In this document: in pieces, positions 10,313-23,300 of the stretch
Layout: every line of letters starts with the position of its first letter
Numbering within the stretch: the first letter of the stretch is position 1
From: an uncultured virus (IMG/VR IMGVR_UViG_3300030380_002827)
Lineage: Duplodnaviria; Heunggongvirae; Uroviricota; Caudoviricetes
Virus record (IMG/VR): IMGVR_UViG_3300030380_002827
Strand: one strand, 5' to 3'
Length of the DNA: 63,014 nt
Notes under the pieces: generated by a model
Told to the model about the DNA's origin: nothing
The model's database searches: none
The model's input: the letters and a program-made list of their open reading frames with translations, nothing else
Translations under genes and position numbers: made by a program

Positions 10313-13300
10313 TTAGATTATGACAACGAAAGTTCTACCTTCTTCGATGACCGCATACTCTGTTTCAGCATTACCGAAGGTGTTAACTTGACCAATTCCA
10401 ACGTAAGTTGCACGAGCTTGAGATTCCTTAGCTCCTGCAAGGCCTTTGAATCTTCCTTGAGTCTTGTAGTTGGCGAAGGTAAAGGATTCGACAGCTGTTC
10501 CACTTGTCTGGTAAAGAACTGCAACACCAATACCAATCGAAGGTGTGAAATCGACAAATGGATGTACGAGAGGTGTATTGGAGAATGTAAATGTTCCAGA
10601 TGTGCCTGGATCTCTGTCGTCTCCGTAGTACCCAAATACTTGTACTGGTTTTGTAATACCAACACCAGAGATTGTAGTGATACCAGATGTGCCTGGATCT
10701 CTGTCGTCTCCATAGTATCCGTAAACTTGATTGAGTTCTGTAAGTGCAGATGCTCCCTTGAGATCGAAGAGGACTGTTCCTTCCAGATCGTCCGCTGTAA
10801 ATCTGACAACTGATGCACCAGAGAATGTAGCGATACCAACACCAATTTCTCTGAAGAATCCTTGTTCTCTTGCACTTCCAGAGAAGGTAGCGATGCCAAC
10901 ACCAGTGTAAGCTGGAGTGTAATCGATATCTGGATGTGTAAGTTCTCCAGATAGTGTGAGTGTACCAGATGGAACAAAGTCTTGGAATACTTGGAAGTAT
11001 CTTGTTTCTGCAGCACCTGTAATATCTGTAAGGATTGCCCTTGCAGCAGATGGTACAACAATAGATTCTGCAGCACCACCAGCTGCAAATAGCGAACCAG
11101 AACCTGTTGGAGAAAGTATGATACCAGTAACGACTTTTTGATCGTTGCTGAGTGTGAGAGTTCCAGATCCCTCGAACTGGCGTTGACGGAAGGCACCAGC
11201 ATCTCCAGATAGTGTAATTGTTGCAGTATCTTCTGGAGTCTGAGCGGAGAAGGATTCTTCTGCCGTTCCATTGAATATAGAAGTTCCAGCGACAAGTTCT
11301 GCAGCAGCAGTTGCCTCTGCAATACCACCAACTGCGAACAGAGAACCAGATCCAACTTCGACAGATGATGTTGCTTCGTCTTGACCAGCACCGTGATAAG
11401 TAAATGTACCACTGCCGACTTCTGGGACAGAGGTTTTCTCGATTGTGAGAATACCACCTTCCTGACGGATAGTGATTTGACCAGATGTGCCTGGATCTTT
11501 GTCGTCTCCATAGTAACCAAAGACAGAAACTGGTCTTGCATCTGCTCCAGTTGTCTGGAAGTCGAATAGGAGAGATCCAGCACCAAATTCGGTTGCAGGG
11601 ACAAATCTTTCTTTTGCACCAAACTCAACACCGTTAAGATCGCCAATTCCATCTTCACCAATTTCACCATTGGCCTCAGTACCAATACCGAGAATGTAGA
11701 TTGTACCGTCAGTAAGAATAGGAGCGTTAGTACGACCGATTGCCTTACCGTTGAGACTGATAATACCAGAGCCAGGATATCTTGGTAAGAACCTTGTAGT
11801 AACAATACCTGTCTCTCTGTCCTCTCCACCACCAGGCAAGAGGAACATACCTGTTTCGATACCAATGTTCCTTTCGATACCATAGTGAGGTGTGAAGTCG
11901 ATTTGTGGATGTGTAAGTTCTCCAACCAGACGTAAGGTTGCCTTATCGGATTGAGTAGCAAAGGTTGCACTGAGTTCTGTGTATCCGCCACCAACAATGT
12001 GTAGGTAAGTTCCTTCTGGTGGATCGAAACTGGATGCCTCGATAGCTGCTCCAGAGAATGTAGTAATACCAGAAGCGGGTGGATTGAGTATCCTTCTGTA
12101 AGTTGTAAACCCAACCGCTTGAGTTTGTTGAAGGGTAATATTTCCAGATCCAACAAAGTCTCTTGCTCTACTTGTATCACCATCACCAGAGATATCGAAT
12201 AGAACTGTTCCTTCTTGAGTATCAACGATGAATCTTTCATCTGCACCACTAACAAAGTCGAATAGAGATGTTGTGCTACTTGCAACTGCAACTCTCTCGA
12301 CTCCAGTACCAGATACGATAAGTGAACCAGAACCAATCCAACTTGGGATGAACTGAGTAAACTTGGCAGGGATTGTTGGGAATACAATCTTTCCGAATGG
12401 GAACTGAGATTCCCTTGGTGCTGGGTCTGTGATGAATCCAGAATCTTCGTACCCTTTGTTGATTTCCTGTTGATCGAATCCAGTATCGGAAGGATATAGT
12501 CTGGTGTAAGGACGACCACCAACAGAACTGATTCCGAGAATACCACGATCCTCAGAAACAACATTGGAATCAAATCCGAGATTATATTGTTGGTTCTTAT
12601 CGAACGTTGGAAGAACGCCAGGACCACCAACTGCCTCGTCATATGTAAGACCAGTTGATTGTGAATTGTCAAAGGTAATATCTCCAGCATCGAGAGATTC
12701 AACGGATGTAATTCCGATTCCAACATTTGTAAGTGAGAATCCACGACCAACATCTTCGACACTGATAAGTCCATAGTCTTCGTTTTCTGTACCGAATAGT
12801 ATGGAAGACCTGTTGTAAGAATCTGTGTTCTTCTCAAAGATGGTATTACCAGTAAGAGAAATGGTTCCACCAAACTCATCATCAGGAATGTTGATCTTAC
12901 GAGCATATGTCTGATAAGGTTCTCTTCCTTGACTGAACGTTCCAGTACCAACACCAGTGATATGTGGAGCGAAGTTGACACTTGCCTCTCCAGAGATGAA
13001 CTGGTAATCTCCAACCAAGTATGCCTTGGTGCTGGATTCTGCAGCACCACCAATAGTGAAGAGTGAACCAGATCCTTCTGGTATGAATGGTGTAATAGAC
13101 TCATTACCAGTACCGAGAATACTGAATTGTCCTTCTTCACCGAATACTGTGTGTTGTGGAGCCTGTGATAACCATAGTTCTCCAGATATGAATATACCAG
13201 CATTGTGTGTAGCAATACCAGATTTTCCAGAGGACTCGTAATCGATTGCAGCTGCAACGTCGAGATCTTCTGAAAGTAGGAAGGTTGCGGTCTCTGTAGT

Positions 13301-14968
13301 TCCATCTGTCTGTACAATGAGACTTGAATCTCCAGTAGAGAATGTAAGTTCTCTGTTTGGATAATGCTGACCACCGATCTGAACGTAGTTGAAGTCTGGA
13401 AGTAAGAATCCCCAGTTCTCTGCTTCCTTCGGTATTGTCTCGTCGTTTGTATTGATTGGTCCCCAATCTTCTGACTGCTGAGTTGGAGTAGCAGTGATAA
13501 GACCCCAATCGTATTCTTCTGTTTTTTGATCTCCAAGAGGTGATATCCAAGAAGGAGTGTAAACAGGTATACCCTGTTGCATCCCTCCAGAGAAATTGAA
13601 TAGATTTGTATTCTCGTAATCCTTGACAAGTACAACATCTGTTGCCGCACCAGAAGTATTGAAGAGAACTGTATTGGATTTATCTCCACTACCAGTAACG
13701 ATAGCGATACCAGATACAGAACCAGTAAGTCTAACAAGAGCCTTTTTAGTATCAGGAAGTAGGACTCTACTGTCAGCACCAGTTCCAGATATATCGAAGA
13801 GAACTGTATTATCGACAGTTGCAGGGACAAATGCCTCATCTGCACTACCAGATATGGCAACCTCACCCTCAAGACCGAAGAATGTACTTTGTGGTGCCTG
13901 ACTGAAGAAGTTCTCTCCAGAGAATGTTGCTGTACCAGATCCAGAGTATGCAAAGAAACGATCTGCATCTGCAACACCCTCTTTCTTGAATGTACCAGAA
14001 CCGTGATATCCTCTAATGATAGCATCTTCGCCACCAACAGTGGTTGCCTGATATTCGTCGAAGAATATTCCGCCTTGTAATTTCTGTGGTATTACACCGT
14101 AATCTTCAGCAGATGTAGGTGTAGAAAGTATATTTCCGTAACTCTCAAATTCTACCTGATCTTCGTCAGAGAATGATCTCTCCTTCGCAAGAGGATCTGT
14201 GATAATCTCGTCAAATGTGACATTGAGATTATCGAAGGATGCACCTTCTCTAACTGTAATTGTGCCGTTATCTTCTTTCTCGAATACGTCAGACTCAGAT
14301 CTGGCGTAGTTGTATATGACTTTCTCAACGTCAAATAGTCTGGTATCTCCACCCTTCGCCCTAAAGGCGTTCTTGATAATTGGTAAGTAGGCTTCGTTGT
14401 ATGGAGTCTGTTGAGTTCCAGTTATGGATACAGAGCCACTACCATTATACGGATAAACTTGGTCTAGGTCGGTTGCAGACAGCCCTGACTTGGCAATCGC
14501 ACCAGCACCGATATAATTTCCTCTAGATATAGATTCTTCTGCTGTCCCAGATGGGATGAAGATGACAGCTCCTGCCGCTCCGAGATCTGGTATGACGACT
14601 CTTTCGAGACCGTTACCAAATTCATGAATTGTACCAGTACCCACCCAAGGTGTTACTGCTGACTCTAATGCAGAGTCATTTATATCAAACAGTACAGTAT
14701 TTGCGTTCTCTGGAATCCACTGAGCTCTAGATCTACCAAACTCGTCTCTTCCATCTACTACTTCTATTGGGCCGAATGGGAGTACATCTGCTGTAGCAGT
14801 GATAAGTCCCCAGTCGTTTACAAAGAAAAAATTCTCGTCTCTTTCGGGTTCTACATGTTGATTTATGTCGCCATAGTCAATATTCTCCACTGACGCTACG
14901 GTAATGTCACCGCCTTGGAACGTAGTGAATTGATCTATCTTCGTATTGTCGTAGACAAATACTGTCAA
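10313..14968 (-). CDS. Large acidic Gly/Ser/Thr-rich repeat virion protein (TTG start)
   Basis: 1551 aa with repeated [ED]-[DY]-[WY]-G-x-I, GSGSLF..GGAAES and GYYGDDRDPGTSG units. It sits in the structural module and has a GGGGG RBS-like run upstream. Confidence 0.75.
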   Translation of the reverse strand: MTVFVYDNTKIDQFTTFQGGDITVASVENIDYGDINQHVEPERDENFFFVNDWGLITATADVLPFGPIEVVDGRDEFGRSRAQWIPENANTVLFDINDSALESAVTPWVGTGTIHEFGNGLERVVIPDLGAAGAVIFIPSGTAEESISRGNYIGAGAIAKSGLSATDLDQVYPYNGSGSVSITGTQQTPYNEAYLPIIKNAFRAKGGDTRLFDVEKVIYNYARSESDVFEKEDNGTITVREGASFDNLNVTFDEIITDPLAKERSFSDEDQVEFESYGNILSTPTSAEDYGVIPQKLQGGIFFDEYQATTVGGEDAIIRGYHGSGTFKKEGVADADRFFAYSGSGTATFSGENFFSQAPQSTFFGLEGEVAISGSADEAFVPATVDNTVLFDISGTGADSRVLLPDTKKALVRLTGSVSGIAIVTGSGDKSNTVLFNTSGAATDVVLVKDYENTNLFNFSGGMQQGIPVYTPSWISPLGDQKTEEYDWGLITATPTQQSEDWGPINTNDETIPKEAENWGFLLPDFNYVQIGGQHYPNRELTFSTGDSSLIVQTDGTTETATFLLSEDLDVAAAIDYESSGKSGIATHNAGIFISGELWLSQAPQHTVFGEEGQFSILGTGNESITPFIPEGSGSLFTIGGAAESSTKAYLVGDYQFISGEASVNFAPHITGVGTGTFSQGREPYQTYARKINIPDDEFGGTISLTGNTIFEKNTDSYNRSSILFGTENEDYGLISVEDVGRGFSLTNVGIGITSVESLDAGDITFDNSQSTGLTYDEAVGGPGVLPTFDKNQQYNLGFDSNVVSEDRGILGISSVGGRPYTRLYPSDTGFDQQEINKGYEDSGFITDPAPRESQFPFGKIVFPTIPAKFTQFIPSWIGSGSLIVSGTGVERVAVASSTTSLFDFVSGADERFIVDTQEGTVLFDISGDGDTSRARDFVGSGNITLQQTQAVGFTTYRRILNPPASGITTFSGAAIEASSFDPPEGTYLHIVGGGYTELSATFATQSDKATLRLVGELTHPQIDFTPHYGIERNIGIETGMFLLPGGGEDRETGIVTTRFLPRYPGSGIISLNGKAIGRTNAPILTDGTIYILGIGTEANGEIGEDGIGDLNGVEFGAKERFVPATEFGAGSLLFDFQTTGADARPVSVFGYYGDDKDPGTSGQITIRQEGGILTIEKTSVPEVGSGTFTYHGAGQDEATSSVEVGSGSLFAVGGIAEATAAAELVAGTSIFNGTAEESFSAQTPEDTATITLSGDAGAFRQRQFEGSGTLTLSNDQKVVTGIILSPTGSGSLFAAGGAAESIVVPSAARAILTDITGAAETRYFQVFQDFVPSGTLTLSGELTHPDIDYTPAYTGVGIATFSGSAREQGFFREIGVGIATFSGASVVRFTADDLEGTVLFDLKGASALTELNQVYGYYGDDRDPGTSGITTISGVGITKPVQVFGYYGDDRDPGTSGTFTFSNTPLVHPFVDFTPSIGIGVAVLYQTSGTAVESFTFANYKTQGRFKGLAGAKESQARATYVGIGQVNTFGNAETEYAVIEEGRTFVVII
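10596..11509. repeat. Three near-identical 29-bp intragenic repeats (GDD[RK]DPGTSG)
   Basis: ccagatgtgcctggatctctgtcgtctcc occurs at 10596-10624 and 10683-10711, with a one-mismatch copy at 11481-11509. Confidence 0.85.
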
Positions 14969-14984
14969 AGGTTTCCCCCGAAAT

Positions 14985-15042: not shown

Positions 15043-16051
15043 TTAGTCGAGTGCGACGTTTAGAGTAATCTTGATTTGGTCTCCGTTGTTCTGGATGTTG
15101 TAAGGACCGTTTGTGAATCTCTCAGCGTACATAATTGAACTGTAGAGAGTCGCAGTGTTTAATCCTAAGTTACCGTTTGATGTGGCACTTAATGAAGGAG
15201 TTGTTACGAACTCATCTGCATTAGGAACATCGAATACGGTGTAAACATTAGACTCAAGAGTTGTGTTACCAGTACCAGCGTTAACATAGAGGATATCACC
15301 TGATCTAAGTCCGTGGTTAGCAAACGTAATCTTACCGAAACTGAATGTAACTGATGGGTCAGTTGCAACCTGTATGTTATCAACCAGAGGTTTGTCTAGG
15401 TAGATCGTTCTGTAAGCCCTGTCAATACCGATAATCTTAGTACCAGTTGCGATACCAGCGTTACCAGCAACGAACTGTCCTAATGTTAAGTCGTCAATAC
15501 TAACTTGTGGGTCGATTGTGAGGTAAGAGTTACCGACAACACCGATAGTTGGGTCTGTGTTATTACCCTTAGTAACAGTGGTTCCAATACCAACACCAGC
15601 ACCATGAACAACACCCTGTACTGCAACAGGCATGTTATTTGCTCTAGTAACGTAGTAACCGTAGATGTTACCAGCAGGTCCAGTGAAAGTAAATGTTTGT
15701 TCTGGATATGTAGCAGTTGNNNNNNNNNNCAACGTTCTTGATCACCCATCTAGATCCGTTCAACAGGATACCATACTGCTGGTTATAATCCTGATCTCCT
15801 CTGTTGTTTACACAAACAGGATAACCAGTATTTGCAGTAGTACCGTAACCGTTAACGTTTCCGTCAATGTAGGGTTCAAAGTACGCAGTTGCAGACGGAA
15901 CATCGCCCTCAGCAGGGGTCGTGTTACTTGTAAAAAGTTTTAATACAAGATTTCGCGGTGATGTATCTTCTAAATCTGCGACAAAGTTATTCTGAGCAAT
16001 CAGATAACGCAGCGACTCAATTTCACCAATATTAGGAACGAGTAATGCCAT
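15043..16051 (-). CDS. Virion structural protein, one gene split by an assembly gap (about 335 aa)
   Basis: ORFs 15668-16051 (MALLVPNIGEIESLRYLI...WVIKNV) and 15043-15732 (TATYPEQTFTF...KITLNVALD) join across the N run if the true gap is a multiple of 3, for example 9 nt. Confidence 0.75.
15720..15729. other. Assembly gap (10 N)
   Basis: Run of N in the sequence. Confidence 0.99.
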
Positions 16052-20300: not shown

Positions 20301-23300
20301 AATGTTGTGGTAGAAGAGTATGTGGATGAAATACTAGAAGCAGGGTCATATGGATTCTGTTTATAAACCTGATTAGGATTATTGTAAGGACCATATTTGT
20401 GATTCTGATTTGCAAGTCTAAACCTAATTGCATCATTATTAGTATTAGGACGACTTCCCTCAACAACTTCACCAGCACCAAATGTACCACTTACCATTGT
20501 AATTTCGATAAGTTTAGGTATAACATACTTCGACATATCAATACTATCGAAGAATGGATATAATCTTGTGTTTGGCTTAAGTCTTCTACAGATAAACTCA
20601 ATGTTTCTGGATCGCATTGTAGCAATCACTTCTGTGTTTACAACCTTGTCACCAAGACTTGTAGTATCAAATCTTTCACCAACACGGAACTGAATACCCT
20701 GTCTTGTTTGATTTGTAGTAGTTGTAGTTGTCTGCTCTCTAAAGTTTGTAGTTCTATCTCTAAAGTTAGTTGTTGTAGTGATAGGAATACCACGATGTCT
20801 TTGGAAATGACCTCTTCTAGTAGATCTTCCTGTTACAGTTGTTCTAGTCTCACTGAATAGAGAAGGACTTGTGAATGTGCTTGATCCAGTCCAAGTAGTT
20901 TCCCATGAACCCCAATCAACAGGTGAAAGACCAGTGTTACTATCTGCACCAGTAATTCCCATTGTGGAATTGAAACTACCTTCAATATCATAGGTAGCAG
21001 CAGTTCTTCTAGTTTCAATCCATGTATCAGTGCCTGGATTTAATTCAACCTGACCAATCCAGTTTACAACAGCGAATGGGTTTACGTTCTCAATACGAGT
21101 TGCAAATTCATTTTCTAAGTAAATGGTATCGTTGTAATTCAAACATACAACGTCACCAATTCTCTTGACATTTGAATCACCAAGATCCTCAACAAACCTG
21201 TAGTCAGCAGTAGGATTAGAAGATGTTGCAGCACCAACAATCGCCTCTGATCCAAGTAGTAGGTCAATAGATGTTGTATAGTGTTGAGGTCTTAATCTTC
21301 CCTCTTTCGCATCAACAGATGCTTTATATGATGAGTTAGTTACATCACCACCAGTTACAGATTTGAAGTTATCAACAAAGAATCCTGACTTAAATCTATC
21401 AAGATTTGTTTGTGGATCACGGAGAGACATATTTGTAGTCTCAACTTCAAGGAGTGAAAGTGAAGTATAGTATTCAATATTCTTGATTCTGTTCTCGATA
21501 CTTGCGATATCCTTCATTCGGAATCGCTTGTGTCTAGCAATAGTGATTTGTGCTTCCGCTGGATCGTAAAGATATGGAGGAAGTTGAATAGTTGCAACTT
21601 CTAAAGCATTGTCAATGGTATTTGGAAGTTTTGGTAACTCAGATGGAACACCTTGAGATAGAGTGAAGATACCCTCTTTACTTAAGAATAACTTGTCAAT
21701 TCTTCCAAGATAATATTCGTAAGATAAGTTGAATGATTTATCTTTGGCAAGAACATGAGAAGAAGATGATGAGCCTGGTGTAAATTGTCTTGCTTCAAAT
21801 TCCCAAGGAGCTTTACCAGCAACAGTAGATGTAACTCTAGGTCTTAGGTCAATGATGTCAGAAATAGGAATCGTTCCTACAAAAGGTAATGTGCCTTTGT
21901 AATACTTTTTCTCATAAGAGTTTATAGTCACAAAATCGCCTGGATCTGCTTCATCAATAACAAAGTTATTGTAGACGATAGTGATTCTTCTAGTAGGTGC
22001 TTCTGTACCAGATTTTCTTACAAGTGCAGAGAAGTCAACATAATCCAATCTTTGGCCTGGATCAAACTCATAGTTATTCTTGATGTCTCTGTCGCCTGGA
22101 ATAAAGGTCTGAACTGTACCAGCAACTTTGGTTTCTTCAAAAATGATCTCTTCACCAATCTCAAAAGCATTTTCATTTTGAGATACAAAACTTACTTCAT
22201 TGGATCCATTGGTAGCAACAAATACAGCAGATGCACCAGATGTTTTACCAACAATATTCTCACCAACTACCGCATTAAGAATGTTGGAGTTTAGATTAGT
22301 AAGTTGTAAGATTGGGAACTGAGGATCAGCAGTTGATGAAGATTCTAATACAGCAAGAACTTCTGCAACATCACAAACTCCAAGAGAAAGTCTATCATCT
22401 TGAACTCTATTACCAAATGTTGTGTCATAAGTAAGTCCATCATTTAACTTCATTAATCCAGTGCCTGACTGGGTTTTCGAGGACTTGTTTAAAGTATATG
22501 TTGTTGCTCTTTTGAATATTTTTGATTTTGGTTTGACATTTACCTTCTTCCAAGTAACTGTCAATACAGCAGCACCAGAAGCAGTGTCTAAACCAGATAA
22601 GGTTACAGTTCTACCACTGACTGTAAGTTTTTGATCCGTTAATGATTCAACTGTACCAGATGTCTTAAATGTAAGGTTGTAATCCTCTTCATCAAATGGT
22701 TCAAGAGTCAAATCAGCATCAGTTTCTAAAGTTCCACTAAAAGCATTACTTGAAACTGTAACGTTGTAGGATTTCTTGAATATGATATCTGCACCGTTCA
22801 ATTCAACAGATGCAACATTAGGTTTAGTTAATTCACTAAACAAGAATGCTTGTGAATTGTTTTGAACTTCTAAAGTAACCTTGAACAGATCGTTTGCAGA
22901 TACGGCAGAGGTAGGTAATGCACCAGAACATACATTTTCAACATCTACAGTAGCTTCAAGACTGATAGCAACAGCAGATGTATTAGTAACTCTGTTAAAT
23001 GTAGGAACGGAGTTGCCTGAAATACTATACTGAATGATATCTCCAGTCTTAATACCAGAGTTTACGAAACTTGCACTAGGAGATGTGATTGTAGATGCAG
23101 AACCAGAGTTTGCACTAACAGTAAACTGTGTTGCAATAGGAGCAATCAGATGACCTAATCCTAGAACAGGGTCAGCTGTGAAAGGGTAGTTTGTAGGATC
23201 ATTACTAACAAGTTGTTTAATATCCTCTACACCGTAGTCTTCTACCTCAGTAATACTTCTATTTGAAGTAAAACCATTGAAGAATAATTCTTCACCAACT

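What the first reader, a model, noticed from the sequence alone, without database searches (positions are those of the whole stretch)
10318..14151. About 1,277 stop-free codons in the +1 frame inside the 1551-aa virion gene
Seen: the ORF track gives a 1239-aa same-strand ORF (10318-14037) nested in 10313-14968. That frame is open from the stop at 14152 and closes two codons before the main stop. Same-strand shadow ORFs in the other large genes here are at most about 150 aa. The shadow protein has about 40 Tyr by hand count, meaning NTA codons followed by a pyrimidine are common. NTA followed by a purine, which would give TAA/TAG, never occurs, even though most main-frame codons start with A or G. 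Inference: this could be a real overprinted gene, a frameshift-accessed alternative C-terminus, or unusually strict codon-pair bias. The Leu/Val/Ser/Gln-rich composition is what a passive +1 shadow looks like, so expression is unproven.
Basis: partly seen in the sequence, partly recalled or inferred. Interest (0 to 1): 0.8.

Follow-up and report, generated by a model that had tools for sequence, protein, structure and literature searches.

The report
Fibre gene purged of off-frame stops
A giant tail-fibre-region gene of a marine cyanobacterial virus has lost nearly every stop codon from its two unused forward reading frames through natural selection, yet those frames encode no conserved protein, which is very unusual and still unexplained.

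Summary
The +1 frame of the 1551-codon minus-strand gene (10313-14968) has 16 stops in its first 877 nt and then none for 1257 codons (14091-10321). Two null models expect 28-38 stops, and their longest run is 465 codons or less. The +2 frame is also stop-free in two blocks of 180 and 398 codons. The pattern holds in the distinct orthologues down to 40% identity (0-4 stops each) and only weakly in S-SCSM2R at 25% identity (14 stops). In two whole phage genomes it occurs essentially only in this gene.

It is not a conventional overprinted gene:
- Synonymous divergence is not suppressed.
- There is no conserved start or slippery site.
- Several orthologues carry 1-4 interrupting stops, yet the rest of the frame stays clean.
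- The off-frame peptides match nothing.

In-frame ATG/GTG/TTG codons are also about ten-fold depleted, while CTG is not.

My best reading is selection on translational punctuation: mis-framed ribosomes run on to the gene end and none start in frame inside the gene. This probably avoids truncated fibre chains. The mechanism is unproven.

This scan found the same phenomenon earlier on other cyanophage DNA. My literature searches found no description of it.

The parts
10313..14968 (-). Frame-0 gene, 1551 codons. It starts at TTG 14968 and ends at TAA 10315-10313. It lies in the tail/tail-fibre module and is the orthologue of S-SSM7 SSSM7_110.
   Evidence: ORF. 85.6% nt identity over 100% of its length to S-SSM7. 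TTG start aligned with the MTVYVYD start of Sf-FS3. Neighbours hit PHROG tail and tail-fibre families. The gene itself has no Pfam hit and only a weak match to PHROG 11522, of unknown function.
14974..14979 (-). GGGGGA, a Shine-Dalgarno-like hexamer 5 nt upstream of the TTG start.
   Evidence: Read from the sequence printed; the coordinates are inferred from that string. The aligned first codon is TTG in 12 of the 20 orthologues examined.
14092..14968 (-). N-terminal 292 codons with ordinary off-frame stop content. This part is exempt from the purge.
   Evidence: 16 +1 stops (null 10.7) and 23 +2 stops (null 38.5). 15 of 26 NTA codons are followed by a purine. Every orthologue carries off-frame stops here.
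10321..14091 (-). +1-frame stop-free run of 1257 codons. The ORF listed from its first TTG is 10318-14037 (1239 aa).
   Evidence: Nulls. The same run is present in S-SSM7 and in IMG/VR relatives.
13140..13679 (-). +2-frame stop-free block A, 180 codons.
   Evidence: 0 +2 stops observed against 17.5 expected (minimum 9 in 500). Coordinates. The block is stop-free at the same alignment columns in most orthologues.
10431..11624 (-). +2-frame stop-free block B, 398 codons. All three sense frames are open here.
   Evidence: 0 +2 stops observed against 32.9 expected (minimum 22 in 500). TGA 0, TAA 0 and TAG 0, while TGG 40, TGC 24 and TGT 15 occur in the same frame. The block is longer, up to 711 codons, in other orthologues.
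10318..10320 (-). TAA that closes the +1 frame, 5 nt before the main stop.
   Evidence: The ATA|ATC context is conserved in the window clade, L013 and L041.

Best explanation
The 1239/1257-codon +1 ORF is not a second gene. It is the footprint of purifying selection acting on translational punctuation inside one tail-fibre-cluster gene.

Shown here:
- Stop triplets are removed specifically from the +1 frame over the distal four fifths of the gene, and from the +2 frame in two conserved blocks.
- The off-frame amino-acid sequences are left free to drift.
- In the same gene, in-frame initiation-type codons (ATG, GTG, TTG) are about ten-fold depleted, while CTG is at normal frequency.

Inferred:
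- Ribosomes that get out of frame, by slippage or by internal off-frame starts, cannot terminate inside the gene body. They run on to its 3' end.
- Almost no ribosome can start in frame internally, so the only frame-0 product is the full-length chain.
- The likely benefit is avoiding truncated chains. These would be N-terminal stubs that still carry the first ~290 residues, or headless C-terminal fragments. Either could spoil assembly of a multimeric fibre.
- A run-on chain instead carries a long, unnatural junk tail (Leu/Val/Ser-rich in +1, Trp/Cys/Arg-rich in +2).

That the first ~290 residues are the virion-attachment part, and that the protein is multimeric, are assumptions.
For: Stop-specificity:
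- In the +1 frame after codon 293 there are 0 TAA, 0 TAG and 0 TGA but 42 TAY. CAA/CAG, AAA/AAG and GAA/GAG are abundant in the same frame.
- Against within-region permutation the most depleted triplets are TAG (0 vs 15.0) and TAA (0 vs 11.2), though TTT ranks between them; TAT and TAC are enriched.
- In the +2 blocks, TGA is 0 vs 21.6, TAA 0 vs 8.2 and TAG 0 vs 6.1.
- Antisense frames are at expectation: 53 vs 48.6 and 105 vs 106.8.

Conservation:
- The +1 frame is stop-free or nearly so after alignment column 500. There are 0-4 stops in every one of the 31 aligned sequences (two of them identical to the window gene) except S-SCSM2R, which has 14.

Ongoing selection:
- NTA codons not shared between related orthologues are followed by a pyrimidine 215 times and by a purine 9 times over 8 pairs. 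For the window vs S-SSM7 the counts are 26 vs 0. About 64% of NTN codons precede a purine.

No coding constraint:
- dS is equal in purged and unpurged parts, and synonymous diversity is flat along the gene.
- The +1 translation has no Pfam or PHROG hit.

Gene-specific:
- Nested same-strand ORFs of at least 150 codons lie almost only in this gene in S-SSM7 (233 kb; 7 of 8 listed pairs), S-SCSM2R (244 kb; 6 of 7 listed pairs) and the window.

In-frame start purge:
- The S-SSM7 orthologue has ATG+GTG+TTG at 0.39% of codons. This is the lowest of 68 ORFs of at least 300 codons; the next lowest is 1.6% and the median 3.85%.
- GTG is 2 of 108 Val codons against 11.2% in the other genes. TTG is 2 of 83 Leu codons against 17.9%. 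CTG is 7 of 83 against 7.7%.
- In the window gene the count is 6 against a null of 22.3 +/- 4.1. The depletion is family-wide.

Fit to stub avoidance:
- The N-terminal ~292 codons are exempt from the purge in all orthologues. This fits harm arising only once that domain is complete.
Against: - No direct evidence that ribosomes read the off-frames. The only sequencing runs available were assembled contigs.
- Stub avoidance does not explain why +2 stops are purged in block A (0 vs 17.5) when ordinary +2 stops follow immediately in the next segment (31 observed, 54.8 expected). A ribosome that slipped by -1 would still be released as a stub.
- It requires either that +1 slips matter much more than -1 slips, or that the place of termination matters. 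Neither is shown.
- Block B has no +2 start codon at all, so only slippage could feed that frame there.
- The neighbouring 1479-aa tail-fibre gene and the three giant virion genes show no such purge. Something particular to this protein must be assumed.
- The fold and oligomeric state are unknown. AlphaFold2 gave mean pLDDT 25.7 for the C-terminal 451 residues.
- Some orthologues keep 1-4 +1 stops at conserved columns, for example CTA|ACA at column 1064 in 7 sequences.
Confidence: 0.4

Rival explanations
1. Ambigram-like ribosome shielding. Translation of the off-frames is itself the function. Ribosomes that load at the many +1 start codons run the whole length of this long late mRNA and protect it from endonucleases such as host RNase E. 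In-frame starts are purged so that this extra traffic makes no truncated fibre protein.
For: - Off-frame starts are not depleted. The +1 frame has 28 ATG, 48 GTG and 71 TTG in 1257 codons, similar to other genes.
- The stronger purge is in the frame with about 150 starts (+1). The weaker, patchy purge is in the frame with 7 starts (+2).
- +2 starts cluster in block A (gene nt 1418-1793), which is +2 stop-free.
- The in-frame start purge follows naturally if internal initiation is frequent.
- A weak TTG start is the aligned first codon in 12 of 20 orthologues.
[quoted passage not shown] Its translation is required and may protect the RNA with ribosomes (PMC8316113, abstract read).
- Host RNase E is induced during cyanophage infection (PMC9692554 and PMC3113571; search listing only).
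Against: - The first ~290 codons keep normal off-frame stops, although they would need shielding too.
- Block B has no +2 start codon, yet 0 +2 stops against 32.9 expected.
- No other long gene of the phage uses this device.
- There are no expression data.
Confidence: 0.17
2. A real overprinted gene (or a few). The +1 frame is translated into a protein of up to 1239-1257 residues whose function tolerates almost any sequence, depending on length or Leu/Val/Ser-rich composition only.
For: - The ORF is far longer than chance allows and is kept open in orthologues down to 40% identity.
- In the window it has in-frame TTG, GTG and ATG codons 19-23 codons after the last upstream stop.
Against: - dS is not suppressed, although every third-position change alters the +1 residue.
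- There is no conserved start; the first +1 ATG falls at columns 290-588 in different orthologues.
- 1-4 interrupting stops occur in 15 of the 31 aligned sequences, without decay of the rest of the frame.
- The +2 frame shows the same purge, with a Trp/Cys/Arg-rich translation.
- There are no Pfam or PHROG hits.
Confidence: 0.07
3. Reservoir for evolvability. Open off-frames let frameshift mutations, or out-of-register recombination in this hypervariable host-range gene, produce viable new sequence.
For: - The gene is mosaic and hypervariable, with conserved islands and non-alignable patches.
- It fragments in metagenome assemblies.
- It carries many short in-gene DNA repeats.
Against: - There is no trace of frame switching. 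Of 10,331 ungapped blastn HSPs among the 31 aligned sequences, 10,322 are in phase, and the 9 out-of-phase ones lie in the 5' leader.
- 78 of 80 internal repeats are in phase.
- Off-frame translations of 38 full-length or near-full-length genes (at least 1300 codons) give 0 blastp hits to frame-0 proteins.
- Indels between close relatives are multiples of 3.
- No frameshift indels were seen in the purged region in 4 runs of contigs.
- Second-order selection would hardly hold zero stops over 1257 codons.
Confidence: 0.05
4. Programmed frameshift giving an alternative C-terminus.
For: - Off-frame runs end at or just after the main stop: +1 at -5 to +52 nt and +2 at +8 to +68 nt.
- Phage tail genes are known to use frameshifting (recalled, not checked here).
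Against: - There is no slippery heptamer or homopolymer at the boundary.
- No synonymous-site conservation peak is present anywhere in the gene.
- An alternative tail of 1257 unconserved residues has no precedent.
- No suppressor or unusual tRNA is found in S-SSM7.
Confidence: 0.04
5. Passive by-product of composition, codon usage, repeats or a mutational process such as a retroelement.
For: - The protein is repetitive and rich in Gly/Ser/Thr.
- Third-position G is low, 4.5-8.9%.
Against: - Both nulls keep the amino-acid sequence, and one also keeps the region's own codon usage; both still expect 28-38 stops.
- The N-terminal part of the same gene behaves normally.
- NTA|Y occurs at about the frequency expected while NTA|R is absent.
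- No reverse transcriptase is present in S-SSM7 or in a 99%-complete relative.
- T-run avoidance across codon boundaries is shared by all giant genes, so it is not the cause.
Confidence: 0.02

Closest known systems
Ambigrammatic narnaviruses (stop-free reverse ORF across the RdRp segment; Retallack et al. 2021, PMC8316113; Dudas et al. 2021, PMC8155312; abstracts read)
   Same: A multi-kilobase ORF is kept free of stops by selection while its encoded sequence appears not to be a functional protein. Translatability rather than product is proposed as the selected trait.
   Different: There the ORF lies on the complementary strand of an RNA virus of eukaryotes. Here it is the two same-strand off-frames of one gene of a dsDNA phage. 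Only part of the gene is affected, and it comes with a purge of in-frame start codons. Translation has not been shown here.
Same-strand overprinted (overlapping) genes of viruses and phages (review PMC8227390; long bacterial examples of 957 and 1536 nt, PMC8850804; both seen in search listing only)
   Same: A long ORF nested in another frame of a known gene and conserved among relatives.
   Different: It is 3771 nt long, far beyond those examples. It shows no suppression of synonymous change, no conserved start, tolerated interruptions, and the third frame is also purged.
Ambush hypothesis for out-of-frame stops (PMC5909447, PMC3700767, PMC2996987; search listing only)
   Same: It concerns selection on off-frame stop content in relation to frameshifted ribosomes.
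   Different: The sign is opposite. That hypothesis expects off-frame stops to be favoured, whereas here they are removed.
Programmed frameshifting in phage tail genes (general review PMC5009743, search listing only; specific phage examples recalled, not checked)
   Same: A second frame of a phage structural gene remains readable beyond a point in the gene.
   Different: There is no slippery site, the open stretch is 1257 codons, and the encoded sequence is unconstrained.

Membership tests
Overprinted same-strand protein-coding gene | ORF longer than chance allows given the host gene's protein and codon usage | tested here: met
   1257 codons, against a maximum of 465 (permutation null) or 294 (context null) in 1000 simulations each.
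Overprinted same-strand protein-coding gene | Purifying selection on the second protein, seen as reduced synonymous change in the host frame | tested here: not met
   dS is 0.382 outside the run against 0.384 and 0.375 inside it. Flanking genes range 0.13-0.47. The synonymous diversity profile is flat.
Overprinted same-strand protein-coding gene | Conserved initiation site and an uninterrupted ORF in relatives | tested here: not met
   The first +1 ATG varies between alignment columns 290 and 588. 15 of the 31 aligned sequences have 1-4 internal +1 stops and one has 14.
Overprinted same-strand protein-coding gene | Product detected (proteomics or ribosome profiling) | not testable with these tools
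   Only assembled contigs of public runs were available.
Programmed ribosomal frameshift product | Conserved slippery sequence where the second frame opens | tested here: not met
   The only X_XXY_YYZ heptamer is at gene nt 137. The only homopolymers of the searched lengths are at nt 137 and 1441. The run opens at nt 877.
Ambigram-type non-coding stop-free ORF | Stop-free frame maintained by selection without amino-acid constraint | tested here: met
Ambigram-type non-coding stop-free ORF | ORF on the complementary strand spanning nearly the whole RNA genome segment | tested here: not met
   The purge is on the same strand, in a DNA phage, and over part of one gene. The antisense frames carry the expected number of stops.
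Ambigram-type non-coding stop-free ORF | Translation of the extra frame required for fitness | not testable with these tools
   This needs phage genetics and ribosome profiling.
Diversity-generating retroelement target | Reverse transcriptase in the genome (template repeat not searched for) | tested here: not met
   PF00078 matched 0 of 2 genomes (S-SSM7 and a 99%-complete relative), while the control genomes gave hits.
Phage tail fibre / virion fibre protein (frame 0) | Sequence or fold match to a characterised fibre family | tested here: inconclusive
   No Pfam hit. One weak PHROG match of unknown function, E 4e-14. The best PDB sequence hit has E 0.027. The AlphaFold2 model has pLDDT 25.7. 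The Atlas returned only unnamed viral clusters at 0.81. The placement rests on the neighbours, which hit PHROG tail protein, tail fibre protein and virion structural protein families.

The most novel reading that the evidence does not exclude
Off-frame translation is itself the function. This DNA phage keeps the two unused sense frames of one long late gene readable so that ribosomes in any frame traverse it to the end. That would be a same-strand, prokaryotic counterpart of narnavirus ambigrams, used to shield the mRNA or to dispose of mis-framed ribosomes safely. It is paired with removal of in-frame internal start codons. An even bolder variant, with lower odds of about 0.07, is that the +1 frame is the longest same-strand overlapping gene known, at 1239-1257 residues.
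Probability: 0.2. Interest if true: 0.9.

Novelty: categorically new. Interest (0 to 1): 0.8.

Why it matters
Textbook expectation is that off-frame stops are neutral or even useful. Here selection has done the opposite for a long time, in one gene family only, and without making a second protein.

If the cause is avoidance of truncated chains, it exposes a cost of translational frameshift and internal-initiation errors that is large enough to shape 3.8 kb of sequence. If the cause is protective run-through translation, it extends the narnavirus 'ambigram' idea to bacteria and DNA phages.

Either way, two practical points follow:
- The signature (off-frame stop purge plus in-frame start purge) is a simple, scannable statistic that could reveal other such genes.
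- It warns annotators that a 1239-aa nested ORF can be real as a feature without being a gene.

Tried and rejected
- **Frame switching between orthologues.** Rejected. My first blastp gave spurious hits because on partial loci the longest ORF was an off-frame; I dropped the partial loci.
- **Compensated frameshifts in nucleotide alignments.** The few gaps that are not multiples of 3 lie in low-identity patches and look like alignment artefacts.
- **Off-frame homology elsewhere in the window.** None found.
- **Slippery sites.** None at the boundary.
- **Depletion of SD-like motifs.** Not seen; GGAG occurs 26 times against a null of 18.8.
- **T-run avoidance as a special feature.** It is general to all giant genes.
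- **DGR.** No reverse transcriptase found.
- **Suppressor or odd tRNAs.** None; S-SSM7 has Gly-TCC, Ile-TAT, Thr-TGT, Arg-TCT and Leu-TAA.
- **Public runs.** All 24 are kept as contigs. The four I laid showed no indels in the purged region, and contigs from an RNA library covered 25 of 30 bins. That does not prove transcription.
- **Whole genome of the window.** Not held.
- **Structure of the C-terminal 451 residues.** Mean pLDDT 25.7, unusable, so no fold search was run.
- **Complex prediction with three copies of the N-terminal 293 residues.** Verdict 'no answer', so no inference is drawn.
- **ESM Atlas.** Only unnamed viral clusters at 0.81.
- **Literature.** Searches found no paper describing this purge in phages. 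Supplements were not consulted.
- **Not done.** I did not run the large protein-database searches with the +1 translation. Gene callers on partial contigs would produce same-locus shadow hits that decide nothing.

Full report
**What is there.** The window resembles T4-like cyanomyoviruses. The gene at 10313-14968 (minus strand) is 85.6% identical in DNA over its whole length to SSSM7_110 of Synechococcus phage S-SSM7. Its neighbours hit PHROG families named tail protein, tail fibre protein and virion structural protein. The gene itself has no Pfam family and only a weak match to PHROG 11522, of unknown function. It starts at a TTG preceded by GGGGGA, aligned with the ATG-started MTVYVYD of phage Sf-FS3. 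The aligned first codon is TTG in 12 of 20 orthologues examined.

**The observation.**
- One search lists the nested 1239-aa ORF.
- One search shows 16 +1 stops in the first 877 nt and then none for 1257 codons (14091-10321).
- In this stretch 42 NTA codons are all followed by a pyrimidine, and 7 NTG codons are never followed by A. Two thirds of codons begin with a purine. In the first 293 codons of the same gene, 15 of 26 NTA codons precede a purine.
- A|R junctions after C, A or G at codon position 2 are common, so the avoidance is of stop triplets as such.
- Synonymous permutation expects 27.9 stops (minimum 18 of 1000). A context-aware null built from the other genes expects 38.1 (minimum 23). 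The longest simulated runs are 465 and 294 codons.
- The +2 frame has 0 stops in a 180-codon block (17.5 expected) and 0 in a 398-codon block (32.9 expected). It is normal in one intervening segment and half-depleted in the other.
- Antisense frames are at expectation.
- The other large genes of the window reach at most 149 (+1) and 56 (+2) codons.

**Relatives.**
- S-SSM7 has the identical 1257- and 398-codon runs.
- A scan of IMG/VR gave 49 loci.
- 38 genes of at least 1300 codons reduce to 31 distinct aligned sequences, two of them identical to the window gene. After alignment column 500, these carry 0-4 +1 stops each. The exception is the most distant one, S-SCSM2R at 25% identity, with 14.
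- The +2 stop-free blocks sit at the same columns across the family and are longer, up to 711 codons, in other clades.
- The few +1 stops recur at the same columns, for example CTA|ACA at column 1064 in 7 sequences.
- NTA codons that differ between related orthologues precede a pyrimidine 215 times and a purine 9 times over 8 pairs. The purge is therefore ongoing.
- In whole-genome scans of S-SSM7 and S-SCSM2R, nested same-strand ORFs of at least 150 codons lie almost only in this gene: 7 of 8 and 6 of 7 listed pairs.

**Not a second gene.**
- Every third-position change alters the +1 residue. Even so, dS between the window and S-SSM7 is 0.382 in the N-terminal part and 0.384 and 0.375 in the purged parts. 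Flanking genes range from 0.13 to 0.47.
- Codon diversity at conserved residues is flat along the gene.
- No +1 start is conserved.
- The off-frame translations have shadow-like composition and match nothing.

**Not frame switching, frameshifting or a retroelement.**
- 10,322 of 10,331 ungapped HSPs among orthologues are in phase; the other 9 lie in the 5' leader.
- 78 of 80 internal repeats are in phase.
- Off-frame against frame-0 blastp gives 0 hits among the 38 genes of at least 1300 codons.
- Indels between close relatives are multiples of 3.
- There is no slippery site at the boundary, no reverse transcriptase and no suppressor tRNA.

**A second anomaly.**
- In-frame initiation-type codons are nearly absent. 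The window gene has 2 ATG, 2 GTG and 3 TTG in 1551 codons, counting the TTG start itself, and no Cys.
- Given the protein sequence, 22.3 +/- 4.1 ATG+GTG+TTG codons are expected over codons 2-1550 and 6 are seen. CTG is as expected, 5 against 5.7.
- In S-SSM7 this gene has the lowest density of such codons among 68 ORFs of at least 300 codons: 0.39%, with the next at 1.6% and the median at 3.85%.
- The trait is family-wide.
- Off-frame starts and SD-like motifs are not depleted.
- After nt 877 the sense strand holds only three start-containing off-frame ORFs, of 1239, 137 and 21 codons.

**Reading.** Selection acts on translational punctuation. Inside the gene body, ribosomes cannot stop out of frame and hardly can start in frame.

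I favour avoidance of truncated chains, at 0.4. This fits the exemption of the first ~290 codons and the lack of amino-acid constraint. Its weak points are these:
- The block-wise +2 pattern is not explained.
- Block B has no +2 starts.
- Neighbouring fibre genes show no comparable purge.

The main rival is protective run-through translation, as proposed for ambigrammatic narnaviruses (PMC8316113 and PMC8155312, abstracts read). It fits the abundance of +1 starts but not the N-terminal exemption.

**Earlier work and literature.** Earlier reports of this scan describe the same purge in related genes of other cyanophage genomes. I tested the claims independently here. My literature searches found no published description.

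Noticed in passing
L054:984-1286 (S-SSM7 genome 20984-21286); also G002:C1:194199-194501 and W03 (Sf-FS3) 20809-21098: These cyanophages carry a cyanobacterial-type (permuted) tmRNA gene. Rfam cyano_tmRNA scores are 109.4, 109 and 143.3 bits against a gathering score of 70. It is absent from S-SCSM2R, the relative whose fibre gene has the weakest off-frame purge. ARAGORN predicts an unusually long tag that ends in VTA. With only 3-4 genomes, any link to the purge is anecdotal. The 2010 genome paper (PMC3037559, term search) mentions tmRNA only in its reference list.
   Followed up: partly
window 14966-14979; L001 3001-3072: The gene most likely starts at a TTG with an upstream GGGGGA. The S-SSM7 GenBank annotation instead starts 22 codons later at a GTG. 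The aligned first codon is TTG in 12 of 20 orthologues and ATG in 4.
   Followed up: partly
window 10313-14968: The frame-0 protein has no cysteine and only 2 methionines in 1551 residues. There is no Trp in the last ~440 residues. The other giant virion genes have 0.26-0.74% Cys and 0.85-1.28% Met.
   Followed up: partly
window 15719-15729: A run of 10 N lies inside the upstream gene (the orthologue of SSSM7_109), so that ORF is split in the window's ORF list.
   Followed up: no
window 4926-45714: In all five giant minus-strand genes tested (1479-3046 aa, the target included), TTT spanning a codon boundary and homopolymers of 4 or more are two- to three-fold rarer than synonymous permutation predicts (z -3 to -9). 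This looks like a general avoidance of slippery runs.
   Followed up: partly
alignment columns 669, 678/682, 1064, 1163 of the family (e.g. L017, L019, L033, L035, L041, L043, L045): The rare +1 stops that do exist recur at the same positions and often with the same codons in distantly related orthologues. At column 678 the +1 TGA overlaps an in-frame ATG (ATGA).
   Followed up: partly
window 10313-14968 in runs X12-X15: Metagenome assemblies break this gene into many short contigs with numerous substitutions, which suggests high microdiversity at this locus. One compensated +1/-1 indel pair at 14855/14862 lies in the N-terminal part, in low-depth contigs.
   Followed up: no
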